DNA of 64,000 nucleotides. Source: a virus. The DNA is taken from the IMG/VR virus record IMGVR_UViG_3300033991_000123, positions 4,506 through 68,505 of that record, one strand, 5' to 3'. A model generated the notes under the pieces. It had not been told where the DNA came from. It worked only from the letters and a program-made list of their open reading frames with translations, and did not search any database. Positions within the stretch are counted from its first letter, which is position 1, and every line of letters begins with the position of its first letter. Positions 1-41,824 of the stretch are shown piece after piece. The position numbers and the translations under genes were made by a program.

Positions 1-362
1 CACTTTACCTATGCCGTACAATCGCAACTACACGTTATCTAGACGATACCGTACCTTACCAAAACTTCACTCAACCCAACCCCACTCCTCTATGCAAATA
101 CCGAACTTAACTGCACCGTACCTTACCATTACTTAACGTCACCGTACAATACCATACCTTTACTGGTCCAGACCATACAATACCCTGCCCAACCGCCACA
201 TATCATTACTTCACTATACCACTACATTATCTCGCCTAAATACACCTTTACTAAACTGCACGTCCCCATGCCTCCACAACACGTAACATTACTACGCCCT
301 AACATTACCATGCCTTGCCAAGACCTTACGGTACCTAACTATACTTTTACTCAACCTTACAG
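1..362 (-). repeat. Non-coding array of degenerate 5-nt units (minus strand NGY-NN, predominantly GGT/GGC/AGT + variable dinucleotide); candidate guide-RNA array; truncated at window start
   Basis: Plus strand parses as acc/act/gcc/aca/acg triplets separated by 2 nt (occasionally 3 nt), e.g. acc-gt-acc-tt-acc-aaa-act-tc-act-ca-acc-ca-acc; strong C/A skew; no credible ORF. Confidence 0.85.
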
Positions 363-367
363 AAATA

Positions 368-395
368 AGGTACCATTTATAGAGAAATGGTACCT
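368..395 (-). other. Perfect 11-bp hairpin between RAMP stop codon and array (processing/leader element or terminator-like)
   Basis: AGGTACCATTT (368-378) - ATAGAG loop - AAATGGTACCT (385-395). Confidence 0.75.
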
Positions 396-410
396 CGGCA
401 GAACCGCTAT

Positions 411-1055
411 TCAATCTAGCTTATATTTGAATCTTCCAAATCCTCCGTTCCGCCACTGTAAAAAACCTCCGTCTTCCGCGTAATTGAGCCATTCTACGAC
501 CAGATCGTGCAGAGAGTCTTCTAGGGGTCTTTTCAACGGTCCTCGAACCTCAAAGTCGAATGTTGATCCTGCCGGGATCATTTCAGAATTAGCGATACTC
601 ACCCGTTCGCCCTGCGCGGTTTGTCCCCGCAACGGTCGCGATAGGTGACCGATTTTTTCGCCCTTTGGCAGATGTATTATAATCTGCCGGGGGAAAACGA
701 AAATCGTTCGATCGACGGTTTTTTGTATCCCCGCCTTTGACACCTTCTCTTTGGTATTCAAAAATGCCTTTCTGCTCAACGTCCCCTCGAGCATGGCGCA
801 GGCCGCAGCCGCGCCCTTAAAATGCCCCCGAATCTGGTAATCCCAGATGATCGGTTGACCTTTTTCGTTTCTGGGGAAAACGGTCATCGTTTTTTCGATT
901 ACCTTTTCCGCTCCAATCGCCGCTACCTCCTCCTCGAGGCTCTGCGCATCGGGAGCTTTAGAAGCGATAAACTCCCGATGTATGTCGGGGCTGCCTGACG
1001 CGGAACCTAAAAGAGGTTCAATCAGCGTTGCCTGAACAAACATTCCCTTTTTCAT
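411..1055 (-). CDS. Stand-alone Cas7/RAMP-superfamily RNA-binding protein (214 aa)
   Basis: RAMP-like motifs in order: FVQATLIEPLLGS, GQPIIWDYQIRGHFKGAA, EMIPAGSTFDFEV, C-terminal Gly loop GGFLQWRNGGFGRF; ATG at 1055 preceded by GAAGGAG SD. Confidence 0.75.
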   Translation of the reverse strand: MKKGMFVQATLIEPLLGSASGSPDIHREFIASKAPDAQSLEEEVAAIGAEKVIEKTMTVFPRNEKGQPIIWDYQIRGHFKGAAAACAMLEGTLSRKAFLNTKEKVSKAGIQKTVDRTIFVFPRQIIIHLPKGEKIGHLSRPLRGQTAQGERVSIANSEMIPAGSTFDFEVRGPLKRPLEDSLHDLVVEWLNYAEDGGFLQWRNGGFGRFKYKLD

Positions 1056-1098
1056 GCAAACTCCTTCTGTAGGTGAGAGGAAATTAGAGTGAAGGGCT

Positions 1099-1172
1099 GG
1101 CAGTACCGTACCGGTTTCCCCGGTCCCCCACCCTGGCCGGTTACGTCCGGGTGTGTGGGTGCTCCCGCTGCC
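1099..1172 (-). ncRNA. Putative structured 5' leader (multi-stem junction) upstream of RAMP gene
   Basis: Minus strand pairs GGCAG/CTGCC, CCCAC/GTGGG enclosing CCGG-ACGTAA-CCGG, and ACCGG-GGAAA-CCGGT; GC-rich intergenic island. Confidence 0.45.
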
Positions 1173-1195
1173 CCTTGACACTCTAAATATTTTTG

Positions 1196-1582
1196 CTATT
1201 CAATTTCTTTCCTTTTATGAAAGCAACAACGAGGATCGTTGCAAGAGCAATTTATGTCGGCGATTATCTTTTCAATTTCCTTTGGATCGGTAGTCTCAGC
1301 GCCGACCGGCTCGTCCGGCCCCGGTAGATCGCATTCCTCGAGGTCGATCGGCGATATACCGAAAACCTTTCGGGGGAATTTAATTTGATTGTATTCCCCC
1401 GTGACGGCAACGGTCACCGTTCCATCCTCATTATAGGAATATATTATAACCCGATGTCCGGTTGTTTTTAGGAGATACAGCCTATCCGGAGGTAATAGTT
1501 TACCCAAATAGCGTATTATCTGCGGACGAGTTGATAGCCAATTTTCAAAATCCTGTGTGTCGATATCTCTAATTTTTGCCAT
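1196..1582 (-). CDS. Hypothetical phage protein
   Basis: 128-aa ORF with SD (GAGG), co-oriented in operon. Confidence 0.7.
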   Translation of the reverse strand: MAKIRDIDTQDFENWLSTRPQIIRYLGKLLPPDRLYLLKTTGHRVIIYSYNEDGTVTVAVTGEYNQIKFPRKVFGISPIDLEECDLPGPDEPVGAETTDPKEIEKIIADINCSCNDPRCCFHKRKEIE

Positions 1583-1593
1583 TGAATTCCTCG

Positions 1594-2343
1594 CTAGTGT
1601 ATGTGTGCCTTTTCGATCGATGATAAATTATCTTCCAAACCACACGCATTGCAGCGCATGGAACAAATGGATTGAGTTAATTCCTCGTCGGAGGACTCGA
1701 CCGTGCCTATTTTATGGCAAAATCGGGACTCTCCCGCCAAAACGTTTCCATGAGCATCAATGGAGGGGGTGCAGAAATAACCCTTTTTCCGCAAAAACGC
1801 CAATGTCGCCGTAAATGACCGCAACGAGTTGCAAATAGATCGTAAATTAAAGCAAAACGGTGACCGGCGAGACGCCGGAAGACGATTGTTTTTTGCCCGT
1901 CCTATCGGCGCAATCGTTGAAATGGTATTACAATATTGTATTTGCGGATGTATTATTTCCGCAATTTTTTTTGAATAATACCGATGATCGGCTGAAACCT
2001 GAATTACGATCGCTTGCTTTTTAGCAATTTTCAGCAGCGGGTGTTTTTGCTCTTTTAAAAACATTCCGTTCGAACAAATGGTAACAAACCAATCGCTCAA
2101 CAGGTTTAGAAAATCATATAGCTGCGGATGCTCCGTTGGTTCCCCTCCGCTCAATAGTATCGTGCGCGATAGGGGATATTTGTTCATGCGTTCGATAAAT
2201 TTAATCGTTTGCCTGAAAACCTCCATGTCCATGTGCTCACCGCGTGGCATCGCATCCTCCATGCAGTGCGGGCAACCCATGGTGCATTGCGTTGTCACTT
2301 TAACCAGCATCGGATTCACTATCCTTTTCATCGGGCAATTCAA
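1594..2343 (-). CDS. Radical SAM protein
   Basis: CxxxCxxC (CTMGCPHC), LSGGEPT, CSNG motifs, Cys-rich C-terminus; start may be 2331. Confidence 0.85.
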   Translation of the reverse strand: MNCPMKRIVNPMLVKVTTQCTMGCPHCMEDAMPRGEHMDMEVFRQTIKFIERMNKYPLSRTILLSGGEPTEHPQLYDFLNLLSDWFVTICSNGMFLKEQKHPLLKIAKKQAIVIQVSADHRYYSKKIAEIIHPQIQYCNTISTIAPIGRAKNNRLPASRRSPFCFNLRSICNSLRSFTATLAFLRKKGYFCTPSIDAHGNVLAGESRFCHKIGTVESSDEELTQSICSMRCNACGLEDNLSSIEKAHIH

Positions 2344-2656
2344 TCGTTTCGCAGGGAATATCCACTACAATTAGCTTGGGTTCCCCACCTCCCCACCGCT
2401 CGGCAATTGGATTTTCGGTTTCAGTCCATAGGTTTCGTTCTTTTAGTTCGGTCATCCATACTGAAACCGGCGGTCCTTCCGGAAACCAATTCTGGTCCAC
2501 GCCCAAGAAAACCGTGGAGACAACGATTTTCCTGATTTTAGTTTTTGCAACATGAATTTTGTTTTTTGCCCGAAAGTTGACCCACTCGAGAGGGTCATCG
2601 ACCGGCGTCGGATTATGGTTGGCGTCAAGAATGTAGAAAAGCGGCCTCATGGTCAT
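2300..2656 (-). CDS. Hypothetical phage protein
   Basis: ORF with VSTVFLGVD motif of a kind seen in phage proteins; ATGA overlap with upstream gene. Confidence 0.55.
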   Translation of the reverse strand: MTMRPLFYILDANHNPTPVDDPLEWVNFRAKNKIHVAKTKIRKIVVSTVFLGVDQNWFPEGPPVSVWMTELKERNLWTETENPIAERWGGGEPKLIVVDIPCETIELPDEKDSESDAG

Positions 2657-2952
2657 GACTTACTTACCTGTAGCACCGCTCCGTTGATTCGCATTGATTT
2701 GTGAGAGTTTGCCAAAATTTCACAATCGTGCCAAAATATTTTACATCTGGCATTATAATACTCAGTTTCCCTTTCTAGCTCGATCCGTTTTGCACATATC
2801 GCATCCGCCATGCGCGTTAAATTTGCGTGTTCTTCCGCCAGGGGTTTCGGCAAAATACAAAAATTTTCGTACTCCGTCGCCTCCTTCGCCTCCTCTGTTT
2901 TCTTGACTATTTCACTAGCAAGAAAATGGAGTATTTCATCTAGGTTTTCCAT
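2653..2952 (-). CDS. Hypothetical coiled-coil protein
   Basis: ATG at 2952 with GAGGGG SD. Confidence 0.65.
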   Translation of the reverse strand: MENLDEILHFLASEIVKKTEEAKEATEYENFCILPKPLAEEHANLTRMADAICAKRIELERETEYYNARCKIFWHDCEILANSHKSMRINGAVLQVSKS

Positions 2953-2972
2953 TTTGCCCCTCTTTGAGTATT

Positions 2973-3038
2973 TGGGCGCGGTAGGGATAAGCACGCTGTG
3001 CGTGCTAGCGGCCCTTTCGGGTGCGCAAACCGCGCCCA
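2973..3038 (-). ncRNA. Putative three-way-junction RNA in 5' leader of leftward operon
   Basis: 10-bp outer stem TGGGCGCGGT/ACCGCGCCCA, ACCC-GAAA-GGGC tetraloop hairpin, 7-bp AGCACGC/GCGTGCT hairpin. Confidence 0.55.
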
Positions 3039-3093
3039 TAGATGGATAGTATTCATAGTAGGAGGCTCCTTCGGCCTTTTCTCAATAAATAAT

Positions 3094-3122
3094 AAAATAC
3101 CATCAAAAAATAAATAATTCAA
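3094..3122 (-). promoter_or_regulatory. Sigma70-like promoter for leftward (RAMP) operon
   Basis: TTGAAT-17 bp-TATTTT with extended -10 TG. Confidence 0.5.
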
Positions 3123-3139
3123 GATAAAAAAAATAGGTA

Positions 3140-3168
3140 TTGACTATTATTTCAAATTAAATTATTAT
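3140..3168 (+). promoter_or_regulatory. Sigma70-like promoter for virion operon
   Basis: TTGACT-17 bp-TATTAT in AT-rich divergent intergenic region. Confidence 0.55.
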
Positions 3169-3171
3169 TAA

Positions 3172-3202
3172 TGTGGATAACTTGTGAATAACTTGTGGAT
3201 AA
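3172..3202 (-). promoter_or_regulatory. Three tandem DnaA boxes (11-bp period)
   Basis: TGTGGATAA (3172-3180), TGTGAATAA (3183-3191), TGTGGATAA (3194-3202) = reverse complement of TTATNCACA. Confidence 0.65.
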
Positions 3203-3473
3203 CCATCATTTAACCTATCGCTGCAAAAATGGTGCCTCTCATCTAAAAGAGGGGACGCAGGTGGATGGAAATATTGTGGCGTTCATAGGGAAAAACACGA
3301 TCGTCGTGCGGTGCGGCGATCGAAAATGTCGAGCGTGGAATGTTCTAAAATTCCAATTACCCGGCATCGATCTCGATCTGCGGCAGGCAGGGGTAACGCA
3401 AACGGTAATTGCTGATCCAAATATTGTATTCAAAAGCGCTCGGGCACCCGTGATTATCGACGAGGGGCAATAA
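3195..3473 (+). CDS. Small Cys-containing (possible Zn-ribbon) protein
   Basis: YRCKN and VRCGDRKCRAW; TAATG coupling to portal. Confidence 0.6.
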   Translation: MDNHHLTYRCKNGASHLKEGTQVDGNIVAFIGKNTIVVRCGDRKCRAWNVLKFQLPGIDLDLRQAGVTQTVIADPNIVFKSARAPVIIDEGQ

Positions 3474-5509
3474 TGGCTGATATGACGGAATCGGCCCGGA
3501 TAATTTCCGATTTTGAGGCTGCTGTTAAGGCGCATCAGGCCGATTTGACGCGGGCGTGGGAGGTTTGGGAGGCTTATTTCGCGGTATCCGGTGGTCAGTG
3601 GGAGAAATCGAAACGGGAGGATTTGCGGCAACAGGCCCGGCATCCCTGGCAATTCGACGTTCTCGGGCCGAAATTGGATACCCTGGCCGGTAGTCTATCT
3701 GCGGAACTCCCCGATTTTGATTGGTTGCCGGTCGAAGGTAATATCACCCAACCGATCGAGGCATGTCGCGAGCGGTATTACGGCGATAAGGAATTATTTA
3801 ATTACGATGACGTTTTGCTTCGAACGATCCGCGACGGCTGCGTACATAGCGGCTGGGTGCAACTAAGAGAATCGCAGCGATATCAAAAAACCGGAAATAT
3901 TGCGTTGGAGGTATGTCGTCCAGGCTATATTATCGCCGATCCGTATTGGGTGACGGACGATGATCGTAATCTAGAATGCCTATATAAGGTATACTATTTC
4001 CTTCCCGAACAAATCGCCTTACGATACCCAAAAAAATCAGAAGAAATCCGTCGCGCGATTCGCGATCGGAAGCAACACGGGCAACAATATAATTCGAATA
4101 TCAATACCGAATCCCGCGACGAACAGCAGCGAATGTATAAATCCGATGTTGGCGATCAATATCGGGTAATTGAAAAATTTTATACGAAAGAAACTGTTAG
4201 TGAACGGTTAATCGGCATGAAGGCGGATTTTGCAACCGGCCAAATGTCGGCAATCCCCTTTCCGGTTACGAAGGATCGGGCATTTCTTCAAAATTTTGCG
4301 CAAATAAACGGGATCGGATGGGATGACGTTTCGGTTGATGAGTATCGGGAAAAACGGCAGTATGTAAAAACAGTGACCGATTTAGACGACGAAGTTTTAC
4401 TGGAGGACGGCGAAACCCGCGAACAGGTGAATGGCCTTTCCTTCTTCCATTTTACATGCCAGCGTTTTTCCGGGCATGATAAAGGCATTGCAGAATCGAT
4501 TTTGGATTGCCAGCGGGTAATTAATGAAAAAGAATCGTATTTGCTCGAGTATATCGCCAAGGCGGGCGGCGGCAGTGAAATTTGGAACGAGGATTTATTT
4601 AAAAACCGTGATGCACGGGAACGATTCGTAAAAAACAAAAACAAATTTGGACATGTCGAGTTCGCCGATGTGGATGGAGTGCGGACCCCTCGAATCGCGG
4701 TGGAACCGGCTAATGTTCCGAGTGCTGTTTTTTCGGAAATTGCTCGAATGTACAACGAGACGCTGCCACTGGTGAGTCGCGTGTCCGATGCCATGAGTTC
4801 GATTAGTCAGAGTGAGGATAGTGGTGTTTTGTATGAACGCAAATACCAGATGAACCGCATTGCAAATGTGATGTATGATAAATTTGTCAAGCAACTGGTA
4901 AACAATATTGCTGAAGCCTATTATTATCAATTCCAAATTACCTACGGCGATGTGCAGCAGGATGTAAAAACTCGATTTGGCGGATCGATTACTATTAATA
5001 AGAAAGAAATGGTAGCGGGGTCAAAGGTTATTGTTAATGATGTTTCTTCATTGCCACGAGCGAAAGTGGTTGTTTCTGAGGCCAAATCCTCCCCTATTTA
5101 TATGTTGCGTAAAAAAATGGAGATGATTGAGATTATTAAAGCGGTTCCTCCAAACGACACGTTGCGCCTACAGGCGGCGCTAAAAATGTATTTCGAGAAT
5201 ATTCAAATGGCGGATGAAACACGGGCTGAAATGGAAATGGTTAATCAGCTCGAGATGCAAAAGGCCATGCTGCAACACATGACCGAGATAAGCGGGCTGC
5301 AAACACAAATTAAAAATAATCAGGTGCAGAGCACGCAAATGGATGCCATGCTAGCGCAAATGCAGATGCAAATGCAGGGACAGGGGCAGGGGCAGATGCA
5401 GGGGCAACCGGTATCCGCGCCCCAGGTCGAACAGCCGCAAATCGAGCAATTGCAACAGCCCGAGTTTGCGCAGCCCGAGCAATCGCGCATGGAAATGGCA
5501 ATGCAATGA
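3473..5509 (+). CDS. Portal protein (P22-like)
   Basis: 678 aa; GGQW...R motif, RDGCVHSGW, GIAESILDCQRVINEKES, Gln-rich C-terminal barrel; first large gene of head module. Confidence 0.8.
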   Translation: MADMTESARIISDFEAAVKAHQADLTRAWEVWEAYFAVSGGQWEKSKREDLRQQARHPWQFDVLGPKLDTLAGSLSAELPDFDWLPVEGNITQPIEACRERYYGDKELFNYDDVLLRTIRDGCVHSGWVQLRESQRYQKTGNIALEVCRPGYIIADPYWVTDDDRNLECLYKVYYFLPEQIALRYPKKSEEIRRAIRDRKQHGQQYNSNINTESRDEQQRMYKSDVGDQYRVIEKFYTKETVSERLIGMKADFATGQMSAIPFPVTKDRAFLQNFAQINGIGWDDVSVDEYREKRQYVKTVTDLDDEVLLEDGETREQVNGLSFFHFTCQRFSGHDKGIAESILDCQRVINEKESYLLEYIAKAGGGSEIWNEDLFKNRDARERFVKNKNKFGHVEFADVDGVRTPRIAVEPANVPSAVFSEIARMYNETLPLVSRVSDAMSSISQSEDSGVLYERKYQMNRIANVMYDKFVKQLVNNIAEAYYYQFQITYGDVQQDVKTRFGGSITINKKEMVAGSKVIVNDVSSLPRAKVVVSEAKSSPIYMLRKKMEMIEIIKAVPPNDTLRLQAALKMYFENIQMADETRAEMEMVNQLEMQKAMLQHMTEISGLQTQIKNNQVQSTQMDAMLAQMQMQMQGQGQGQMQGQPVSAPQVEQPQIEQLQQPEFAQPEQSRMEMAMQ

Positions 5510-5585
5510 TAATTTTTTTTTCATACCTATTCACTCGCCGAGGCGGAAGTAAACCCCCGCAGAGCGGTAACTATCGGAGTACGTA

Positions 5586-7088
5586 ATGGCTGAAGAGCTA
5601 CGGTACGAATCAGAAACGGCGAAAGCCGATGCGATTTCTAAATTTGACGAGTCAGCGGGCAATCCCGGCGATCTCGATCGAATCATGAATGCGCCAGTTG
5701 GTCCGGCGGTTTCCGCCGAGGCGGACATAACACCCCCGCAAAGCGGAACCGAAGGGAAACCGACCGGTGAGGCGGACGTAAAATCCCCGCAAACCGGCGT
5801 GATTACCGATCCGGAATCATGGGCGAAAGGGAAGGGATACGCTTCATTTGCCGAAGCGCGGAAAGCGTTTGATGAAAAGGAGGCGTTATTAAAACGTCAA
5901 CAACAGTTCATCCAGGACAAAATCAGCGCTCCGCCGCCAACGCAATCGGTAGATTACGAAAAACTACTACGGCGCAATCAGGAGTTGGAGCAATTAATTG
6001 CCGCTCAGAAACCGCCGCAAGGTGCCCCTCCCGGCCAAACAGCGCAAAAGCAAATACAGGTTACGGAAAATAAAATCGGAACGATTAAACAGGCGCTTGC
6101 CGCTAATTTGCAAAAAAAACGGGCATTGATCGCCCAGGTTCGCGAAGACCCGTCGCTACAATTAGACCCTGCGTTCATGGGTAAAAACAATGAGGTCGAG
6201 GAAGAAAAATTCAACCTCGATATGCAACTAGTTGAAGAGATGGGTTCGCTCCGTGAGTTGTACGACCAAAACTCAAAACAACTGACGGAATATAAAGAAC
6301 GGGGCGAAAAGGTCGTAGAAAATGAGCGGCGCAAGCAGCTTTATGAAGCCGAAATGGACGAAATAGATAGTTTCGTCGGCAATAAAGCGCATCCGGAATT
6401 TGCCTTTTCCGAAGGCAAGGATTCTCGAACGGTGGAGGTTGAATACGTGGCGTGGGCGAATAAGGTCGCTAGCGCGCTGTACGGCTCTGCCGTTAATATG
6501 GTTCGATCCGAAAAGGACCGCGAAGCGGTTGCGTATGCGCTAGATAAACTGAGTCAAAAAGACCCGGAAATAATTAACGCCTGCACCGCTGCCGGAATAC
6601 CGGTTGAACCGACCGAGGATATCCGGAAATACCTTGATGTATGTGAACTTTTGGATCATCGGGATGGTGTCAAGAAAAATCCCATAACAGGCGTGAAAGA
6701 GCAACAGTACCGCGTCACGCGAAACCAGCAAACCGGCCAATTTGAAAAAACGCCGGTACGATTTCCATCCATTGAGGATGCGTATGTGCATAGGCTTGCC
6801 GTTGACGGTGAATATAATAAACGGATCAAGGATGCCTATACGCGAGGCGGTAAGGATATGTTGGTCGCGTCTCAAAAACGCACGCAAGCCCCGGTTACGC
6901 TTGATAACGCCGGTGGGGCGAGCGGGGTAGATGTCGGTCTTGCACTGTCGCCGCAACAGGCCATAGAGACGTTATCGAAAATAGACGAGAGCGAGGCGTT
7001 CCGGCGCAAATTGGCCGGTGATCCGAGTTTGTGGAATCAATACGAAAAGGCGATGGAAGTCGTGAATGCCGGAGCGCGGGCAACGTAG
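5586..7088 (+). CDS. Putative capsid scaffolding protein
   Basis: Acidic coiled-coil protein between portal and capsid. Confidence 0.55.
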   Translation: MAEELRYESETAKADAISKFDESAGNPGDLDRIMNAPVGPAVSAEADITPPQSGTEGKPTGEADVKSPQTGVITDPESWAKGKGYASFAEARKAFDEKEALLKRQQQFIQDKISAPPPTQSVDYEKLLRRNQELEQLIAAQKPPQGAPPGQTAQKQIQVTENKIGTIKQALAANLQKKRALIAQVREDPSLQLDPAFMGKNNEVEEEKFNLDMQLVEEMGSLRELYDQNSKQLTEYKERGEKVVENERRKQLYEAEMDEIDSFVGNKAHPEFAFSEGKDSRTVEVEYVAWANKVASALYGSAVNMVRSEKDREAVAYALDKLSQKDPEIINACTAAGIPVEPTEDIRKYLDVCELLDHRDGVKKNPITGVKEQQYRVTRNQQTGQFEKTPVRFPSIEDAYVHRLAVDGEYNKRIKDAYTRGGKDMLVASQKRTQAPVTLDNAGGASGVDVGLALSPQQAIETLSKIDESEAFRRKLAGDPSLWNQYEKAMEVVNAGARAT

Positions 7089-27804: not shown

Positions 27805-28803
27805 ATGGCGCTGGACCTTGGGGAAACATGGGTTGATTTGGGGAGTCCTGACGCAACACAATTTAATGTTTTTGCCGTGGCTTCGCTTGGAGGCTCGGTT
27901 GTGGTTGCGGGAACAGGTCCGGATGCGAAAATTTATCGCTCTAGCAACTACGGGTTAAACTGGGTAAATTTAGGTGCACAGGCCGGAGAACAGTCAATAT
28001 ATTCCCTCGCCTCGCTCGGGGGAGGAATAGGATTGGCCGGGACATGGCCGTCGGGGAAAATACTACGGACCACGAACTATGGGATTACGTGGACGGATTT
28101 AGGCAGTCCCGATCCAGGAGAAATATACGTTCTTTCTCTTGTTTCACTCGGGGGAGGAATAGCGTTGGCCGGAACGGCTACTAATGGGCATATTTATCGG
28201 TCTACTGATTATGGCTTAACGTGGGTGGATTTAGGCAGCACCGGAGAATTTGGAATATATTCCCTCGCCTCGCTCGGTGGTGGGGTAGCGTTGGCCGGGT
28301 CAGCGACCAGTGGCGTATTGTTTCGGTCTACTGATTATGGCGCGACGTGGGTAAACATGGGTTCCCCAGGATCAATGTCGTATATGTTCGCTCTTGCCAA
28401 TCTTGGGGGTGGAATTGCATTGGGCGGCGGGATGCAAATTTTCATGGGTGCGTTTGATAAAATGATACGATCCACAAATTACGGTTTAACGTGGACGGAT
28501 TTAGGCAGTCCCGCCGGTGATGTATCCATCAGCGCTCTTGCTTATCTTGGTTATGACATCGCAGTTGCAGGAACAAGCGCAAATGGGAAAATATTACGAT
28601 CAACAGACCTTGGGGCAACATGGGCGGATTTGGGTCCACAATATGGGGAAATGACCATAGAAGATATAGCGTATGTTAATAACGGAATAACGGTTGCGGG
28701 TACAGCCGCGAGTGCGAAAATATTACGATCGGTCGGCCATTTACCCGTAGTTATTCCAAAAAGAATTTTACAATCTCGTATTAAAATAGCGGGTGGATTT
28801 TAG
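27805..28803 (+). CDS. Asp-box (BNR) repeat beta-propeller protein
   Basis: About 7 repeats of RSTDYGxTWxDLG, visible also at DNA level. Confidence 0.8.
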   Translation: MALDLGETWVDLGSPDATQFNVFAVASLGGSVVVAGTGPDAKIYRSSNYGLNWVNLGAQAGEQSIYSLASLGGGIGLAGTWPSGKILRTTNYGITWTDLGSPDPGEIYVLSLVSLGGGIALAGTATNGHIYRSTDYGLTWVDLGSTGEFGIYSLASLGGGVALAGSATSGVLFRSTDYGATWVNMGSPGSMSYMFALANLGGGIALGGGMQIFMGAFDKMIRSTNYGLTWTDLGSPAGDVSISALAYLGYDIAVAGTSANGKILRSTDLGATWADLGPQYGEMTIEDIAYVNNGITVAGTAASAKILRSVGHLPVVIPKRILQSRIKIAGGF

Positions 28804-28812
28804 GAGGCATTT

Positions 28813-29328
28813 ATGGGTAGCAAACCTATCGATAAAACATTTGACCTTAAACCGGGCTGGCAAAAAGCAATTTTAGCGTTATGGGAATCGGGCGCGACGG
28901 ATGAAGAGGTCCGTGCGTGGATTCAAAAGCAACGCGGGTTTATTAACGATTACATTTTCGATTATTGGCGCGAAAATGTTCCTGAGTTTGGCAAGGTATA
29001 TGAAAAGGGGCAAGTGCTTAAAAAGGCATGGTGGATGCAGCAGGGCCGGGAGAATATCGGCAATTCCCGGTTTAATACTCCCCTATTCATGCGTATGCTG
29101 TTTGCCACATGCGGCATCCGTGGCGAACCGAAAGTTGTCGAAAACCGCAAATATAGCGCAATTGATTTAAGCCAGCTTGGAACTGACGATTTGGAATCGC
29201 TGCAAAAAATAATGGAAAAGGCTAAAAAGAAAGAACAAGAACAAGCGCAACAGGAGGAGTACGGAGAAATAGCCAATGCTCGCATCGCAGTATTTAGAGG
29301 CGGCCGTAAGCAGCGGTCTATCGCTTGA
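28813..29328 (+). CDS. Terminase small subunit (putative)
   Basis: Immediately upstream of TerL; WW..QGR...FNT motif as in P22 gp3-like proteins; IDLSQLGTDDL. Confidence 0.65.
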   Translation: MGSKPIDKTFDLKPGWQKAILALWESGATDEEVRAWIQKQRGFINDYIFDYWRENVPEFGKVYEKGQVLKKAWWMQQGRENIGNSRFNTPLFMRMLFATCGIRGEPKVVENRKYSAIDLSQLGTDDLESLQKIMEKAKKKEQEQAQQEEYGEIANARIAVFRGGRKQRSIA

Positions 29329-34136: not shown

Positions 34137-34706
34137 ATGAGGATTTTAGTCGCTTGTGAATTTAGCGGTGTGGTTCGTGATGCTTTTTTAAAAAAAGGCC
34201 ACAATGTTATGTCTTGCGACTTGTCGCCGACAGAAAGACCGGGGCCGCATTATTGTGGCGATGTGGAGCCGCTACTTAAACAGCGGTGGGATTTATTGAT
34301 CGCTCATCCGCCATGCACATTTTTATGCAACAGTGGTGTGCGTTGGTTATATGAGATACCTGGCCGATGGGCGAAAATGAAATTAGCTTCTCAATTTTTT
34401 CTTAACTGTCTTAATGCTAATGCCGAGTTTGTGTGTGTTGAAAATCCGATTCCACATAAACATGCAAAAAAAATTATTTGCAAACCGTATAATCAAATTA
34501 TACAACCGTGGCAATTTGGACACGGAGAAACAAAATCAACTTGTCTGTGGTTAAAAAACCTTCCGCTTTTGCGACCAACAAAAGTAGTTGATGGACGATA
34601 TCATCGAATACATGAAATGTCTCCTGGTTTAAATCGTTCAAAATTACGTTCAGTTACTTACGAAGGAATTGCAGCCGCATTTGCTGATCAATGGGGTGAT
34701 TTATGA
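34137..34706 (+). CDS. Short phage-type DNA cytosine methyltransferase-like protein
   Basis: ILVACEFSG, IAHPPCT, VENP, QPWQFG, RSVTYEGIA. Confidence 0.7.
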   Translation: MRILVACEFSGVVRDAFLKKGHNVMSCDLSPTERPGPHYCGDVEPLLKQRWDLLIAHPPCTFLCNSGVRWLYEIPGRWAKMKLASQFFLNCLNANAEFVCVENPIPHKHAKKIICKPYNQIIQPWQFGHGETKSTCLWLKNLPLLRPTKVVDGRYHRIHEMSPGLNRSKLRSVTYEGIAAAFADQWGDL

Positions 34707-35029
34707 GTAAAATTCGTTTTTTCGACATCGACAATACAATTTGCCAAACGAACGGGACCGATTACGAAACCGCCGCGCCGATTGCGGAGCGTATTAAAAA
34801 AATCAACGCCCTTTATCGTGCCGGTGATCGGATTGTATACTGGACGGCTCGAGGGGCGCTTCTTGGCCGCAGTTGGACTGAAATGACCAAGCAGCAGCTT
34901 TATAATTGGGGGTGTAAATACCACGAATTGCGCGTGGATAAACCGTTGTATGACACATTCGTGGATGATCGTAATTTTAATGCAGATGTTTTGGATGATT
35001 TAAAAATATGGGAAAAAATCGTCAAATAG
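34703..35029 (+). CDS. HAD-family phosphatase (capsule-biosynthesis phosphatase-like)
   Basis: FDIDNTI, WTARG, KP..DTFVDD. Confidence 0.85.
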   Translation: MSKIRFFDIDNTICQTNGTDYETAAPIAERIKKINALYRAGDRIVYWTARGALLGRSWTEMTKQQLYNWGCKYHELRVDKPLYDTFVDDRNFNADVLDDLKIWEKIVK

Positions 35030-35193
35030 ATTTATCGAAAAAATCTATAGATTGGCTGGAAAGCAATCTGTTTACGTGTGATTGGCAAGGAGCGGAAGCA
35101 AAGAAAATGGTTCTTTTGGAGTTGTTGCGAAGAGATCCGAATTATAAACCGATATTAAAGCGAGAAGGCGCGGTTCGGGAGATCGATGAATAA
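35008..35193 (+). CDS. Hypothetical small protein
   Basis: Fills gap with overlaps to both neighbours. Confidence 0.4.
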   Translation: MGKNRQIDLSKKSIDWLESNLFTCDWQGAEAKKMVLLELLRRDPNYKPILKREGAVREIDE

Positions 35194-35974
35194 AGTTTGC
35201 ATTACAACCGTTGTGGATGAACACTATGCCGCATACATACCGTTGTTTTGTTGGTGTGTAAAACAGGTATACCCGGCGTATTCATGCAAAATTTTTACTC
35301 GCAATATTGACGTTATTCAGAATTTGTTTTTAAATACTGAGTTTATCCCGTTGTTTGAAGATTTTCCTCGTTATTCATATAATACAATTGCTCTGCGGTT
35401 TGTTATTCCGCCAAAATATTTCGATAAATTCGATTATGTTTACGTAACCGATATTGATATGATGATTATGCCGGAACGCATAAGTATTGAGGATTTTCAT
35501 TGCGGGGAAATGGTTTCTACGGGACTCCCCTATTCTAATTCCCTCCGTAATGTGCATCACTACGCCGGATATCAATCGCTCAGTGGGCTGCATTTCGCTT
35601 CTCGGGCATGGTTTATGAAAACCGAAGCCGAACGCCTAAAATATTACGATTTATTGCAGCGCGGCTTAGTAGGGTTGTATCGGGAATACGATGGTATAAT
35701 GCTCTATCGCATGGCCCGAAATAGCGGTCTGGGGATACCTAAAAAGTATAAACTCAAGAAACGGCACCACGGCATTCATTTAGGGAATTTTAGATTGTAT
35801 AACACAAGGGAAGCGTGGGAATCACGGATACCGCCTGAATACAGATCGCAATGGCAATCCTGGGAGTGTGATCCGGAATTTAGCGAAATAATAAAACATT
35901 GTCGGATAAAAAATAAAATGCTTGATAATCAACTGACTACCCTTCACGATTTTATTAGGAACCCCGGTATATGA
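35186..35974 (+). CDS. Putative GT-A glycosyltransferase
   Basis: YVYVTDIDM DxD motif; cluster context. Confidence 0.6.
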   Translation: MNKVCITTVVDEHYAAYIPLFCWCVKQVYPAYSCKIFTRNIDVIQNLFLNTEFIPLFEDFPRYSYNTIALRFVIPPKYFDKFDYVYVTDIDMMIMPERISIEDFHCGEMVSTGLPYSNSLRNVHHYAGYQSLSGLHFASRAWFMKTEAERLKYYDLLQRGLVGLYREYDGIMLYRMARNSGLGIPKKYKLKKRHHGIHLGNFRLYNTREAWESRIPPEYRSQWQSWECDPEFSEIIKHCRIKNKMLDNQLTTLHDFIRNPGI

Positions 35975-36720
35975 AAACAATCGGCATCATCACCGCTCGA
36001 GGCGGATCAAAGGGAATTCCCGGCAAAAATATTAAATTGTTTGCCGGGAAACCTTTGATCGCTTGGACCATCGAAGCGGCGCGAAGCGCGTATATGCTGG
36101 ATTATGTAATCGTATCTACCGATAGCCATGAAATTGCGGCAGTGGCCCGTCAATATAAGGCCGACGTTCCGTTTATCCGCCCAGGTTATTTAGCCAAAGA
36201 CGACACGCCGCACATAGACGTTATTTTGCACGCCTTGGATGAAATAGGGTATGATCGGTTTACTCATTGCTGCCTATTGCAACCAACCTCTCCCTTGCGC
36301 ACCTCAGACGATATTGACGAGGCGTGTATTTTGGCGAGCAAGCGTAAAAGCAAAACCGTTGTAAGTGTTTCTGAAAACCGTCAATATCCGCTTATTTTGC
36401 CAAGTGCCGTTTTTGGGTATCTTATTCGCCCTCGACATTTAAAACAACGCTATTTACCGCGACAGGCCATTTTGCCGCGCAGCTTTATTAATGGGGCAAT
36501 TTACGTAAATACTATCGAACAGCTACTTAAAAAACGTTCTGTGTATTCGTGGCTTATGTGCGGTTATCCGATGCCCCTGGAACGGTCTATGCAAATCGAT
36601 ACACAATTAGATTTTGATATCGCTGAATATCTGATGATAAAAACCATAGACGCAAAAGAACATAAAACCGAAGCAATAGCGCAAGGTCAGCAAATTCAAT
36701 CTGATTTTTTATTTTTATGA
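35971..36720 (+). CDS. neuA: Acylneuraminate cytidylyltransferase (CMP-NeuNAc synthetase)
   Basis: ITARGGSKGIPGKNIK, VSTDS, LQPTSPLR, NGAIY, QIDTQLDF. Confidence 0.92.
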   Translation: MKTIGIITARGGSKGIPGKNIKLFAGKPLIAWTIEAARSAYMLDYVIVSTDSHEIAAVARQYKADVPFIRPGYLAKDDTPHIDVILHALDEIGYDRFTHCCLLQPTSPLRTSDDIDEACILASKRKSKTVVSVSENRQYPLILPSAVFGYLIRPRHLKQRYLPRQAILPRSFINGAIYVNTIEQLLKKRSVYSWLMCGYPMPLERSMQIDTQLDFDIAEYLMIKTIDAKEHKTEAIAQGQQIQSDFLFL

Positions 36721-37256
36721 AAACACGCATAAGTATTGGAAAGCACACCTACGGTGAACCAAGGATATACGGTAAATCTGCGCATTGTATAATTGGCAAA
36801 TTTTGCAGTATCGGGGAAAATGTGCGAATAGATATCGGTAACGAACATAATCCCAAAAACATTTCAACATTTCCGTTTAACGTAAAATTTCCGGAGATAG
36901 CCGGGCATATAGAAACTCATCCTGTATGTAGGGGCGATGTCATTATTGAAAATGACGTGTGGATAGGTTTTGATGCCATCATTTTAAGCGGTACTCATAT
37001 TTATAATGGGGCTGTAATAGGTGCAAATTCGCTCGTGCGCGGTGATGTTATGCCGTATACGATTCATGCCGGTACGCCTGCGGAGTTTAAGCGGTATCGG
37101 TTTCCATCCGACAGGGATAGGGGCATACTGCAACTAGTGCAATGGTGGGATTGGCCGGATGAATTATTGTTTCGTAAGGACGTTATGGAAATACTCATGG
37201 GTAATGATGTGCAGGCATTATATAAGTTTTGGGAAAGGCATTTGCCGCATGCTTAA
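36717..37256 (+). CDS. CatB/Vat-like hexapeptide O-acetyltransferase
   Basis: IGKFCSIG, IENDVWIG, GAVIGANS, QWWDWP. Confidence 0.88.
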   Translation: MKTRISIGKHTYGEPRIYGKSAHCIIGKFCSIGENVRIDIGNEHNPKNISTFPFNVKFPEIAGHIETHPVCRGDVIIENDVWIGFDAIILSGTHIYNGAVIGANSLVRGDVMPYTIHAGTPAEFKRYRFPSDRDRGILQLVQWWDWPDELLFRKDVMEILMGNDVQALYKFWERHLPHA

Positions 37257-37917
37257 GGTAATCGTGTGTGGCTATCACACAGAAGATGAACAGTTGCAAA
37301 AATGTTTTGATTCGATTAGGATGCAAAGTAAAGAATACCATTTTGTACTTTCTCTTGATCCTGATTCACCGCAACGCAGGTATTTATTAAAAAATACTCG
37401 TTGCGCCATTGATTCTTTTCCGATATTATTGCCGAATGATGTTATTGTTTGTATTGATGCCGATGATTGGCTTATCGATGAAGATACCTTTCGAATCATT
37501 CATGATGCATACGAAGAAAATCCGAATCTCTTACTTACCTATGGCAGTTATGTAAATCTTAGTAGTAATAAGCGGGGAAAATTCTGTGGCGAATATCTTC
37601 CTGACGAATCGTTTCGAACGTCCCCCTGGCGGGGTAGTCATTTGAAAACTTTTAAATACAAATTATGGCAAGCGCTTCCGAAAACGCAATTACAGTGGGA
37701 TAATGGTGAATGGTTCAAATGCTGCGCGGATCGGGCCATGATGATCCCTATGATGGAACTGGCCGGACACGATCGGATTAAATATATCGATATGCTTTTG
37801 TATTGTTACAACGATTTAAACCCTGAATCGGTGTGGAAAACTAATCGAGAACTAAGCCTTAAAACCAGGGATTTTATTGCGGCTCGATCGCCGCTACAAC
37901 GACTCGAGACAATATGA
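37249..37917 (+). CDS. Glycosyltransferase family 2-like
   Basis: CIDADDWL, SHLKTF, YCYN. Confidence 0.8.
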   Translation: MLKVIVCGYHTEDEQLQKCFDSIRMQSKEYHFVLSLDPDSPQRRYLLKNTRCAIDSFPILLPNDVIVCIDADDWLIDEDTFRIIHDAYEENPNLLLTYGSYVNLSSNKRGKFCGEYLPDESFRTSPWRGSHLKTFKYKLWQALPKTQLQWDNGEWFKCCADRAMMIPMMELAGHDRIKYIDMLLYCYNDLNPESVWKTNRELSLKTRDFIAARSPLQRLETI

Positions 37918-38666
37918 GCGCATTACCAAAGGTAAGCATTGTAATTACCTTGTATAATTATCACGATTATATTTTGAATACGATTGAATCTTGTTTAGCG
38001 CAGGATTATAAGGGTGAAATTGAGGTAATTGTAGTGGATGACGCCAGCACCGATCTGGGACCGCAATGGGTACAACGAGTTTATGGCGATAGAATCAAAC
38101 TGATCAAATTTGAACGTAATTGCGGGTATAGCGTTGCCAAAAACGAAGGCATCAAAATGAGCAGCGGGGAATTTATCACCACGATTGACGCTGACGATAT
38201 GCTCACCGACGATAGTATCAGTATTCGCGCCCAGATTCTGTTAAAACAGCCGGACGTATCGGTGGTTCATGCCTTGGCCTGGGTAATCAAGGGAGAGGGA
38301 GATCGGGTTTATTGGACTAAGCGATATCGGAAAATTCATGTAGCGCAAAACCGGAAAATCCATGCGCAAACAGTAATGGTTAGGCGGTCGATATATACAA
38401 AATACGGAATGTATGATGAACGGTTACGATCACGCGCTGATAATGAAATGTGGTGGAGGTTGCAAAACGTGGCGCGTATAGGTGATCAGTTTTATTTTTT
38501 GGAACAACCTGTAGCGTTTTATCGCAAGCATTCAGCTTCAATGGTTGAATATCGGAAAAAACATCCGTTATACAATTTGACGGTTTCAACGATTTTGGAA
38601 GAGCAAAAAAACATGCGCCTAACCCAGGGTATCACGCGCGAAAATACGAGGTTTTTAAAGCGATGA
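37914..38666 (+). CDS. Glycosyltransferase family 2
   Basis: VSIVITLYN, VVDDASTD, AKNEGI, IDADD. Confidence 0.9.
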   Translation: MSALPKVSIVITLYNYHDYILNTIESCLAQDYKGEIEVIVVDDASTDLGPQWVQRVYGDRIKLIKFERNCGYSVAKNEGIKMSSGEFITTIDADDMLTDDSISIRAQILLKQPDVSVVHALAWVIKGEGDRVYWTKRYRKIHVAQNRKIHAQTVMVRRSIYTKYGMYDERLRSRADNEMWWRLQNVARIGDQFYFLEQPVAFYRKHSASMVEYRKKHPLYNLTVSTILEEQKNMRLTQGITRENTRFLKR

Positions 38667-39403
38667 TGAAATTTAAACATTATATTGTGACCAGGTTTAA
38701 CATTGGCTTGTATCAATTGATAAACGTTGATCCGCAAAAATGGTTTAATGAGCGCATTAAGGTTTTCGCCGATATTACTGTTCCATCAATACGCAAGCAA
38801 ACATGCCAAAATTTTGAATGGGTTCTGCTTTTTGACCAGCAGACCCCGACCGATCATGCGCGTAAAATGAAAAACGTTCTCGAAAGCATTCCAAATGTTC
38901 GCAGCCTATTTCTTTCGCTGCCGAAAGATTGGGTATTTAAAAAATATAGCGAGCGGGGATCGGTTACGGCTAATTATACTCCTCTCGTAAAATATATACA
39001 GCCACAAAGCAAGTATTCTCTACAAACTCGTCTTGATAACGACGACGCCCTGATGCCTGATGCCGTTGAAAAAATCCAAATGAACGTCATAACGGCTAAA
39101 AACCGTTATATCGTTGATATCCGACTAGGATATATTTTAGATACACTAAAAAAGCACGCATTTAACGCGGTGCATCCGATCGGATCGCCATTTCTGAGCC
39201 TGTTTCAGACAAATAATAAAAATACAATTTCAGTATATAATAACATGCATCGCAGCATGGTAAAGGATGTTCACGTGCGTACAATTAATGAGCGTTTATG
39301 GGTAATGCACGTACATGGCAATAATGTGTCGAACCGAGTATTTGATTGGATGGCGCAAAAACAAATTAACTATAACGAATTATTGGGGACGATCACACAA
39401 TGA
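38663..39403 (+). CDS. Putative rhamnosyltransferase-like glycosyltransferase
   Basis: HYIVTRFN, PSIRKQTCQNFEW, TRLDNDD. Confidence 0.75.
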   Translation: MMKFKHYIVTRFNIGLYQLINVDPQKWFNERIKVFADITVPSIRKQTCQNFEWVLLFDQQTPTDHARKMKNVLESIPNVRSLFLSLPKDWVFKKYSERGSVTANYTPLVKYIQPQSKYSLQTRLDNDDALMPDAVEKIQMNVITAKNRYIVDIRLGYILDTLKKHAFNAVHPIGSPFLSLFQTNNKNTISVYNNMHRSMVKDVHVRTINERLWVMHVHGNNVSNRVFDWMAQKQINYNELLGTITQ

Positions 39404-41794: not shown

Positions 41795-41824
41795 AACCTT
41801 ATCATGCTAAAAAGGATATAAAAA

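What the first reader, a model, noticed from the sequence alone, without database searches (positions are those of the whole stretch)
1..1055. Phage-encoded lone Cas7/RAMP protein plus GGY-NN pentamer RNA array: candidate non-CRISPR RNA-guided system
Seen: a 214-aa gene carries the ordered RAMP motifs (first beta-strand EPLLGS, IRGHFKG helix, EMIPAGS, C-terminal Gly loop WRNGGFGRF). It is followed on the same strand by an 11-bp hairpin and at least 360 nt of 5-nt-periodic non-coding DNA, where a conserved triplet (GGT/GGC/AGT/TGT) alternates with a variable dinucleotide. No cas1, cas5, cas6 or cas8, and no repeat-spacer array, lie in the window. Established: Cas7-type RAMPs polymerise along guide RNA with a fixed number of nucleotides per subunit. 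Inference: each subunit grips one GGY and displays NN, so the dinucleotides jointly spell a gapped target code, for example to silence a competing phage or host gene. From memory this resembles the recently reported viral 'VIPR'-type architecture, which should be verified rather than taken from me.
Basis: partly seen in the sequence, partly recalled or inferred. Interest (0 to 1): 0.95.

Follow-up and report, generated by a model that had tools for sequence, protein, structure and literature searches.

The report
Phage VIPR system with giant guide arrays
A sediment phage carries a lone Cas7-like protein gene followed by about 2.1 kb of five-base guide-RNA repeats, which makes it a large new example of the VIPR RNA-guided DNA-silencing systems first described in 2026 preprints.

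Summary
Window 411-1055 (-) encodes a 214-aa protein whose model is a single-domain Cas7/Csm3-type RAMP (VIA Z 12.5). A hairpin and a C-poor pentamer array follow on the same strand.

The array is far larger than the window shows. In the 68.5-kb phage genome it runs 1,338 nt. Two small ORFs follow, then a second 805-nt array. Together they hold 404 units in 86 blocks.

The rhythm is not a plain 5 nt. Blocks of about five G-Y-N-N-N units each start with one extra G, so they are 5k+1 nt long and the long-range period is 5.20 nt. The same 5.05-5.2-nt G-anchored arrays adjoin homologues in 74 of 83 viral loci and 62 of 80 bacterial-genome loci, against 0 of 249 control segments from the viral loci.

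This is the published VIPR architecture (bioRxiv 10.64898/2026.04.26.720920), probably its "staggered array"/YNNNG variant.

Sequence links to the SUSP1 Vipr are weak, no accessory gene is recognisable, and I found no targets or RNA data.

Verdict: real, a new member of a known kind. This scan has already met similar VIPR loci on other DNA.

The parts
411..1055 (-). vipr: 214-aa stand-alone single-RRM RAMP (Cas7/Csm3-like). It has a thumb hairpin (about residues 136-160, motif R140-P-L) and a G-loop (Q200-W-R-N-G-G-F-G-R-F).
   Evidence: ORF. AlphaFold2 model with pLDDT 81.2 and pTM 0.77. Foldseek PDB top hit is type VII Cas7 8z4j_J at E 6e-8. VIA-align top hit is Csm3 9g9a_D with Z 12.5, rmsd 3.5 and 155 aligned residues, and all 50 listed rows are CRISPR RAMP entries. 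No Pfam, PHROG or PADLOC family. The family has 2,857 proteins at E<=1e-3.
367..396 (-). Terminator-like hairpin between the vipr stop codon and the array.
   Evidence: 12 pairs (4 G-C), 6-nt loop, then ATTTCTGT. The one homologue read here (L010) lacks it: its array starts right after the stop codon.
1..362 (-). Gene-proximal 362 nt of vrRNA array A. The whole array is G000 3535-4872 (1,338 nt, 56 blocks) and continues 970 nt beyond the window start. Outside the window, on the same strand, lie orf84 (G000 3272-3526), orf174 (G000 2751-3275), array B (G000 1956-2760, 805 nt, 30 blocks) and an ASCH/DUF3850 gene (G000 1538-1951).
   Evidence: GT lag-5 z 9.4. Period 5.20 nt with power 12.5. Viterbi and anchor parses. 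Extent. Only short ORFs cross the arrays: 40-71 aa in window 1-483 and 51-88 aa in the arrays outside the window. No Rfam family, hammerhead included.
1056..1195 (-). 140-nt leader upstream of vipr with a visibly G+C-rich core. Its role is unknown; it may be a promoter or 5' UTR.
   Evidence: Sequence. RNA fold -52.5 kcal/mol, z -2.29 against 200 shuffles. No Rfam match.

Best explanation
This is a VIPR (Viral Interference Programmable Repeat) system of a temperate, direct-terminal-repeat phage from sediment.

PROPOSED MECHANISM. The arrays are transcribed on the vipr strand into C-poor, largely unstructured RNA. Vipr protomers bind one pentamer each. They grip the fixed G and pyrimidine and leave the variable bases exposed, so they assemble head-to-tail into a Cas7-like filament. 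Every block opens with one extra G (G + about 5 x G-Y-N-N-N, so 26 nt or another 5k+1 length). That G resets the register. It most likely marks the boundary between about 86 abutting short guides, which I take to be the 'staggered' arrays of the VIPR paper. The ribonucleoproteins then bind gapped complementary DNA in competing phages, satellites or prophages and silence transcription.

SHOWN HERE. The RAMP fold. The array anatomy. Family-wide co-occurrence of the gene with a 5.05-5.2-nt G-anchored array. Hypervariable block contents. A modelled head-to-tail self-interface.

INFERRED FROM THE PUBLISHED SUSP1 SYSTEM. Transcription, RNA binding, processing at block borders, DNA targeting and silencing.
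For: FOLD. Single-domain RAMP: VIA Z 12.5 to Csm3, all 50 listed rows are CRISPR RAMP entries. Foldseek gave 178 PDB matches at E<=0.001, led by type VII and type III Cas7. The BFVD top hit is a 47%-identical phage protein that its record names 'Cas system-associated RAMP superfamily protein'.

ARRAY. 404 units in 86 blocks. Block size is 4-7 units in 68 of 86, with variance 2.6 against 17.4 for random slips. 75 of 84 junctions are +1 nt. Self-identity peaks at lags 26, 5, 31 and 21.

FAMILY ASSOCIATION. In 71 of 83 viral loci the 320 nt directly downstream has a spectral peak above 6 at 5.15-5.20 nt, and 3 more loci have the peak upstream. In 70 of the 71 the signal is carried by G on the gene's strand. 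Controls from the same loci: 0 of 249 segments exceed 6. In an independent set of one genome per species, 56 of 79 testable loci have a downstream peak and 6 more only an upstream one.

GUIDE-LIKE VARIABILITY. Only 2 pairs among 69 blocks share 3 or more consecutive variable triplets (null mean 0.59).

LINK TO THE PUBLISHED VIPR. hhalign of the family profile against SUSP1 Vipr gives probability 70%, E 4e-5, over 170 columns end to end. Both share the G-loop xWRxxxFGRF and the thumb motif R-P-[LI]. By my reading, the SUSP1 contacts to G2 and Y3 (R138, W178, R179) have counterparts R140, W201 and R202. The G1 contacts H17 and D177 are replaced by S18 and Q200. That fits an array where G2-Y3 are fixed and G1 is free.

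CONTEXT. A complete virus record with direct terminal repeats, carrying portal, terminase and integrase genes. No cas genes and no CRISPR array.

SELF-ASSOCIATION. A three-copy model scored ipSAE 0.56, against 0.01 for the best of 3 controls. The runs agree in at least 42% of contacts and partner pLDDT is at least 71. In calibration, 20 of 30 solved homo-pairs and 1 of 23 single chains reach the mark. The interface is asymmetric, as a filament needs. Cas7 filaments are solved, so this pass may reflect likeness to them.

LITERATURE. YNNNG, NNNGG and NNNNG repeats and staggered arrays are named in the VIPR paper. WGT/NN motifs next to Vipr-like folds are named in bioRxiv 10.64898/2026.10.21.760802 (passages read).
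Against: The sequence link to the characterised Vipr is weak. Profile against profile, only 27 G-loop columns align (probability 41%, E 2.8e-4). The family HMM finds nothing in the SUSP1 genome at E<=10. tblastn did not reach SUSP1.

No accessory (vap) gene is recognisable. None of 9 neighbouring ORFs recurs beside the gene in 83 homologous loci. orf174 has no relative at all.

There is no invariant 3' tail, pseudoknot or ribozyme between guides.

A terminator-like hairpin separates the gene from the array, so co-transcription is not assured.

I could not see figures S16-S18 or data S4 of the paper. The equation of these blocks with 'staggered arrays', and the type I-VII assignment, are therefore unverified.
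Confidence: 0.85

Rival explanations
1. It is a sister system that only looks like VIPR. The RAMP and pentamer RNA form a complex, but they read targets by a different code (three variable bases per unit) or act on RNA rather than DNA. The published mechanism would then not transfer.
For: Only G-Y is fixed. The first position of internal units is as variable as N4 and N5: G 88, A 74, T 58 and C 14 of 234. Blocks of about 5 units would specify only about 10 bases under the NN rule. Profile-to-profile similarity to the SUSP1 family is limited to the G-loop.
Against: The VIPR paper already places YNNNG and NNNNG repeat systems inside VIPR on Vipr phylogeny. The thumb and G-loop motifs are shared. 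The conserved helical insertion with K33 resembles the SUSP1 'bundle' that holds the skipped target base.
Confidence: 0.1
2. The arrays are not guides against targets. They are decoy or sponge RNA that soaks up Vipr proteins, the phage's own or a competitor's, or long scaffolds without sequence-specific targets.
For: [quoted passage not shown] The 2.1 kb of array is far more than the four vrRNAs of SUSP1.
Against: Block contents are almost all different, which a sponge does not need. The array sits beside the phage's own vipr gene in nearly all relatives.
Confidence: 0.03
3. The periodic tract acts as DNA (iterons, a packaging or replication element, or bent DNA near the genome end), and its place next to a RAMP gene is incidental.
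For: Array B begins about 1.9 kb from the left end of a genome with direct terminal repeats.
Against: The same G-anchored 5.05-5.2-nt arrays adjoin the gene in 74 of 83 viral and 62 of 80 bacterial-genome loci, on the gene's strand, against 0 of 249 controls from the viral loci. The strong strand asymmetry (8% C) points to a transcript.
Confidence: 0.02

Closest known systems
VIPR systems with 'staggered' vrRNA arrays and alternative YNNNG/NNNNG repeats (bioRxiv 10.64898/2026.04.26.720920, Methods and legend of fig. S18). WGT/NN motifs are also named in bioRxiv 10.64898/2026.10.21.760802.
   Same: A lone small RAMP in a phage. Long tail-less arrays of abutting pentamer guides on the gene's strand. 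Only part of GGY is fixed. [quoted passage not shown] That fits the +1 register shift at each block.
   Different: I could not see the figure or the type table, so the match is by wording only. At 2,143 nt (404 units, 86 blocks; 3.1% of the genome) the arrays are very large, and they are split by two orphan ORFs. No vap gene is recognisable.
Type II VIPR of Escherichia phage SUSP1 (KT454805.2: vipr 28474-29061, vap1 28031-28471)
   Same: A protein of about 200 aa with the N-terminal strand MKxxxIKxT, the thumb motif R-P-[LI] and the G-loop xWRxxxFGRF. G-anchored pentamers lie on the gene's strand. It is phage-borne.
   Different: SUSP1 has four separate vrRNAs of about 100 nt, each with 11-12 strict GGYNN units in one register plus a structured tail (my reading). 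Its spectral peak is at 4.95 nt, not 5.2. It has a vap gene. Its G1 contacts H17 and D177 are S18 and Q200 here.
CRISPR type III and type VII backbone subunits (Csm3/Cmr4/Cas7)
   Same: The best structural matches: Z 12.5-10, one RRM with thumb and G-loop. A head-to-tail oligomer is modelled.
   Different: No CRISPR repeat-spacer array. No Cas5, Cas6, Cas10 or Cas1. The RNA unit is 5 nt rather than 6. Sequence identity is 9-17%.

Membership tests
VIPR (Vipr + vrRNA) | Stand-alone minimal RAMP: a single RRM core with a glycine-rich loop and a thumb, and no second RRM | tested here: met
   214 aa. The model's secondary-structure elements read as one RRM with a thumb hairpin at 136-160 and a G-loop at 197-208. 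Csm3/Cas7 are the top hits, Z 12.5.
VIPR (Vipr + vrRNA) | Sequence or profile homology to described Vipr proteins (SUSP1, X1U2U4 lineage) | tested here: inconclusive
   hhalign against the single SUSP1 Vipr: probability 70%, E 4e-5, 170 columns. Against the SUSP1-family profile: 27 G-loop columns only, probability 41%. The family HMM found nothing in the SUSP1 genome. The paper itself needed 8 PSI-BLAST rounds and structure searches.
VIPR (Vipr + vrRNA) | Adjacent tandem pentanucleotide repeats with fixed GGY (or related YNNNG, NNNGG or NNNNG) and hypervariable remaining positions, at least 4 units | tested here: met
   404 units. G2 is fixed by the anchor rule. Y3 is T or C in all but 11 of 404 units. 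The other positions vary. Block contents are nearly all distinct.
VIPR (Vipr + vrRNA) | The gene-array association is conserved across relatives | tested here: met
   74 of 83 viral loci and 62 of 80 genome loci have an adjacent periodic array, against 0 of 249 control segments from the viral loci. Many of the viral loci are close relatives from one metagenome, so they are not independent.
VIPR (Vipr + vrRNA) | Non-CRISPR context, mostly in viruses or proviruses | tested here: met
   A virus record with direct terminal repeats. Portal, terminase and integrase genes. No cas genes apart from a distant Cas4-like exonuclease, and no CRISPR array.
VIPR (Vipr + vrRNA) | An accessory vap gene next to vipr ('typically' present; six vap families) | tested here: inconclusive
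   No Pfam or PHROG DNA-binding, nuclease or helicase hit among the neighbours. None recurs in 83 homologous loci. The vap families are defined in supplements I could not open.
VIPR type II (SUSP1-like) | Discrete vrRNAs of 9-16 in-register GGYNN units, each capped by an invariant structured 3' tail | tested here: not met
   Blocks hold 4-7 units in 68 of 86 cases, with a +1 shift between them. There is no recurring tail element and no Rfam structure.
VIPR (Vipr + vrRNA) | vrRNAs are expressed and co-purify with Vipr | not testable with these tools
   The single run listed as holding this DNA is a DNA run of a sediment metagenome.
VIPR (Vipr + vrRNA) | Targets follow the 1-nt-skip (xNN) rule in other mobile elements | tested here: inconclusive
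   Only four tests were run and none was informative. Collection scans accept exact matches only.
CRISPR-Cas class 1 effector | A repeat-spacer array plus Cas5, large-subunit and Cas6 partners | tested here: not met

The most novel reading that the evidence does not exclude
This large Vipr clade may use a different grammar from the published one. It has at least 1,478 clusters at 50% identity and occurs from gut Clostridia to Planctomycetota. In this reading each 5k+1-nt block (G + n x G-Y-N-N-N) is a separate mini-guide of about 26-31 nt. All three variable bases of a unit are read, because the G1 pocket (H17/D177 in SUSP1) has been lost (S18/Q200 here). One phage would then carry about 86 different guides, a CRISPR-array-sized repertoire without an adaptation module, working by a decoding rule not yet described.
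Probability: 0.3. Interest if true: 0.7.

Novelty: new member of a known kind. Interest (0 to 1): 0.4.

Why it matters
VIPR is a newly described route to programmable DNA recognition and a proposed ancestor of CRISPR effectors. This locus adds a complete phage genome from sediment, with very large guide arrays (404 units). It belongs to a clade whose arrays share a conserved 5k+1 block design and fix only two bases per unit.

That clade is abundant and has not been characterised experimentally in anything I read. Its decoding rule, the processing of its abutting guides and its targets are open questions, and a compact two-part construct (vipr plus a few blocks) could answer them.

As a discovery it is not new. 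The kind is in print, and this scan has met several similar loci.

Tried and rejected
SELF-TARGETING. I tested 54 blocks of 5 or more units against the phage's own genome with the arrays masked. The rules were NN with 0-3 skipped bases and NNN with 0-2. There was no excess over shuffled unit order; for example NN1 gave 13 matches against 15.0 +/- 2.9.

IMG/VR PATTERN SCANS (exact matches only).
- The 8-unit block under xNN gave 12 loci, about the chance number. Other blocks were not enriched in their flanks.
- Two adjacent blocks joined under xNN (20 fixed bases) gave 0 hits.
- One block under NNNx (21 fixed bases) gave 0 hits.
- Three patterns cannot exclude targets. I did not scan metagenome contigs, and I did not try NNN with 0 or 2 skips.

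CODON TEST. Stop triplets are not depleted among the 404 variable triplets: 27 observed against 24.5 expected in sense, 19 against 20.9 in antisense. Units are therefore not in-frame codons under a contiguous NNN reading.

RELATIVES OF THE PHAGE AS POSSIBLE TARGETS OR HOST CLUES. The portal protein found nothing in genome contigs. The terminase found nothing in viral contigs. There are no tRNA genes. The host is unknown.

RNA EVIDENCE. No RNA holder was listed; the only run is a DNA run of a sediment metagenome.

A FALSE NEGATIVE OF MY OWN. A GT-at-lag-5 detector found an array in only 1 of 83 homologous loci, and in none directly downstream of the gene. That was a flaw of the detector, because the relatives I read anchor on G followed by C or A rather than T. 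The spectral test replaced it.

OTHER NEGATIVES. There are no Rfam families in G000 1-6000, ribozymes included. The array RNA is not more structured than shuffles (z -1.57). orf174 is an orphan; the atlas gives only phage hypotheticals and a lambda Ea47-like lead.

Coding was considered for the tract and rejected. A 5-nt rhythm cannot keep a reading frame, and the ORFs that cross the arrays are 40-88 aa.

CLOSED SOURCE. The type table, figures S16-S18 and data S3-S4 may bear on type assignment and on the 'staggered' architecture.
Full report
WHAT IS THERE

The window is bases 4506-68505 of a 68,505-bp virus record with direct terminal repeats. The record carries portal, large terminase, a 1,913-aa internal virion protein with a lytic transglycosylase domain, and an integrase. 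The only sequencing run listed as holding the locus is a DNA run of a sediment metagenome.

On the minus strand, window 411-1055 encodes a 214-aa protein. It matches no Pfam, PHROG or PADLOC family and no PDB sequence.

It belongs to a big unnamed family:
- 2,857 proteins at E<=1e-3 among the 90% clusters; the nearest is 59% identical.
- 1,478 representatives at 50% identity.
- 546 of 580 matched stretches in IMG/VR encode a relative.
- 174 of 257 matched stretches in one-genome-per-species bacteria encode a relative. The named records include Oscillospiraceae, Lachnospiraceae, Eggerthella, Prevotella, Bacteroides, Phycisphaerae, Chitinivibrionales, Gemmatimonadales and Saccharibacteria.

FOLD

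An AlphaFold2 model built on 35 family members has pLDDT 81.2 and pTM 0.77.

- Foldseek against the PDB gives 178 matches at E<=0.001, led by type VII Cas7 (8z4j_J, E 6e-8) and type III Csm3.
- The Foldseek-independent search puts Csm3 9g9a_D first (Z 12.5, rmsd 3.5, 155 aligned residues). All 50 listed rows are CRISPR RAMP entries.
- In BFVD the top hit is a 47%-identical phage protein whose record calls it 'Cas system-associated RAMP superfamily protein'.

The chain is a single RRM with a long beta-hairpin (residues 136-160, the thumb) and a glycine-rich loop before the last strand.

THE ARRAY

GT recurs at lag 5 far above chance in window 1-362 (35 against 9.4 +/- 2.7, z 9.4). Yet Fourier power at exactly 5.00 nt is at background. 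The reason is a regular register slip.

Reading the whole genome shows that the tract continues 970 nt beyond the window start (G000 3535-4872). After two small ORFs, a second array follows at G000 1956-2760.

An anchor-chain parse gives 404 units in 86 blocks:
- 75 of 84 block junctions are one base longer than a unit.
- Block size peaks at 5 units and is 4-7 in 68 of 86 blocks. Its variance is 2.6, against 17.4 if slips fell at random.
- The unit that opens a block has G before the G-Y anchor in 68 of 86 cases, against 88 of 234 inside blocks.

The simplest description is G + n x (G-Y-N-N-N), so blocks are 5k+1 nt long. This explains two things. Self-identity peaks at lags 26, 5, 31 and 21. 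The spectrum has a sharp peak at 5.20 nt (power 14.4 for array A, 12.5 for the window part, 0.3 at 5.00).

The variable triplets differ from block to block. Only 2 pairs among 69 blocks share three consecutive triplets. The strand is 8% C, and the RNA is not predicted to fold better than shuffles. No Rfam family, hammerhead included, lies in G000 1-6000.

DO RELATIVES HAVE IT?

My first detector, GT at lag 5, found nearly nothing (1 of 83 loci). The relatives I read anchor on G followed by C or A rather than T. A motif-free test gave a clear answer.

- In 71 of 83 viral loci the 320 nt just downstream of the gene has a spectral peak above 6, always at 5.15-5.20 nt.
- In 70 of those 71 the signal is carried by G on the gene's strand.
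- Three more loci have the array upstream.
- None of 249 control segments from the same loci exceeds 6; their maximum is 4.6.
- In an independent, more diverse set of 80 bacterial-genome loci, 56 of 79 testable loci have a downstream peak (5.05-5.20 nt) and 6 more only an upstream one.

Many of the viral loci come from one metagenome and are close kin, so those counts overstate independence. The genome set is one genome per species. SUSP1's own arrays peak at 4.95 nt. The 5k+1 block design is thus a trait of this clade, not of VIPR as a whole.

WHAT IS KNOWN

bioRxiv 10.64898/2026.04.26.720920 (I read Results, Discussion and Methods sections 18, 20, 26 and 27) describes VIPR:
- a minimal phage-borne RAMP (Vipr);
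- usually an accessory vap gene;
- vrRNAs of 9-16 YNNGG repeats with a structured tail;
- DNA recognition by the NN bases with one skipped target base;
- seven types;
- 'staggered arrays with overlapping vrRNAs', and alternative NNNGG, YNNNG and NNNNG repeats.

The fig. S18 legend says that vrRNAs derive from positions overlapping by 1 nt, so that the end of one marks the start of the next.

The cryo-EM companion (sections 5 and 6 read) shows one protomer per repeat. G1 is read by H17 and D177, G2 by R138 and W178, and Y3 by R179 among others. The filament has five subunits per turn when DNA is bound.

bioRxiv 10.64898/2026.10.21.760802 (passages read) lists non-canonical motifs, including WGT/NN, next to Vipr-like folds.

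A third preprint, 10.64898/2026.10.15.759431 (passages only), concerns SUSP1 and its satellites.

LINK TO THE CHARACTERISED PROTEIN

I located the SUSP1 locus in KT454805.2. It has a 195-aa gene and a 146-aa gene flanked by GGYNN runs with tails. The 195-aa protein carries the published residues at 9 of the 10 positions I checked; position 175 is V, not T.

- The family profile aligns to it end to end with hhalign probability 70% and E 4e-5.
- Against a 28-member SUSP1-family profile only the G-loop aligns (27 columns, probability 41%).
- The family HMM finds nothing in the SUSP1 genome.

Read directly, both proteins share xWRxxxFGRF in the G-loop and R-P-[LI] in the thumb. By that reading, the G2 and Y3 contacts are kept here (R140, W201, R202), while the G1 contacts are S18 and Q200. 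This matches an array that fixes G2-Y3 and frees G1. It is inference from an approximate alignment, not a tested result.

A three-copy model gives a head-to-tail interface: ipSAE 0.56 against 0.01 for the best of 3 controls, at least 42% contact agreement, partner pLDDT at least 71. In calibration, 20 of 30 solved homo-pairs and 1 of 23 single chains reach the mark. Solved Cas7 filaments may explain the pass.

WHAT DOES NOT FIT, OR IS MISSING

- No vap gene is recognisable. The neighbours are a 128-aa ORF and a radical SAM gene upstream, orf84 and orf174 between the arrays, and an ASCH/DUF3850 gene after array B. They have no DNA-binding or nuclease family hit, and none recurs beside the gene in 83 homologous loci.
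- orf174 has no relative in 5.8 billion proteins.
- There is no recurring tail.
- A terminator-like hairpin sits between the gene and the array.
- No RNA data exist.

TARGETS

I found none. No rule gave self-matches above shuffled controls. Three exact-match pattern scans of IMG/VR gave chance-level hits or none. The variable triplets show no depletion of stop codons. The phage has no close relative in the collections I searched and no tRNA genes, so the host is unknown. These tests are too few to count against targeting.

VERDICT

The locus is a VIPR system. Most likely it belongs to the published but uncharacterised variant with abutting, register-shifted short guides and only G-Y fixed. It is a new member of a known kind.

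Earlier notes of this scan describe similar GY-NNN or 'punctuated' VIPR arrays on other genomes. None is a sequence relative of this protein.

What remains open, and would be worth a bench test, is whether the 5k+1 blocks are separate mini-guides read by a three-base code.

Noticed in passing
window 1594-2343 (-) and 42544-43500 (+): Two radical SAM genes. Both give weak matches to prokaryotic viperin (pVip) models in PADLOC (E 1.1e-7 and 2.2e-10). The first lies two genes upstream of vipr on the same strand. The matches may reflect only the shared radical SAM core.
   Followed up: no
window 35186-43500 (+): A run of ten ORFs, eight of them 240-262 aa and two of 312 and 319 aa. Three hit GtrB-like or other glycosyltransferase PHROGs and the last is the second radical SAM gene noted above. 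A heptose isomerase-like gene lies just before the run (34703-35026). Together these look like a large glycan-modification cassette, unusual for a 68-kb phage.
   Followed up: no
window 59836-59925: A perfect tandem repeat: 18 nt x 5 copies at 100% identity. It may be iterons or a repeat inside a coding gene.
   Followed up: no
G000 1538-1951 (-), outside the window (L002): An ASCH/DUF3850 gene starts right after array B (Pfam E 1.1e-26; its PHROG family is named 'RNA-binding protein'). It does not recur in 83 homologous loci.
   Followed up: partly
window 1056-1195 (-): A visibly G+C-rich 140-nt leader upstream of vipr in a 45% G+C genome. Its predicted RNA structure is modest (z -2.29) and it matches no Rfam family.
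   Followed up: partly
L010 5395-5805 (+) and 52 other homologous viral loci: In a gut-phage clade of homologues, a conserved 136-aa cysteine-rich (zinc-finger-like) ORF sits about 200 nt upstream of the vipr homologue on the same strand. It is a possible accessory gene of that clade and is absent from this phage.
   Followed up: no
protein P0067 (328 aa): One homologue carries a precomputed ParB-like nuclease domain (PF02195) in the same protein. This hints at a fused accessory function in part of the family.
   Followed up: no
window 49537-50172 (-): A PD-(D/E)XK exonuclease that matches Cas4 models (E 1.2e-7) and a phage exonuclease PHROG family. It sits in the replication/recombination module, 49 kb from vipr, and is probably unrelated to it.
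   Followed up: no
JAGCAN010000001.1 (L100, L101): One 86-kb contig of an Oscillospiraceae MAG holds two copies of the vipr homologue about 48 kb apart, with the same match statistics (52% identity, E 4e-63).
   Followed up: no
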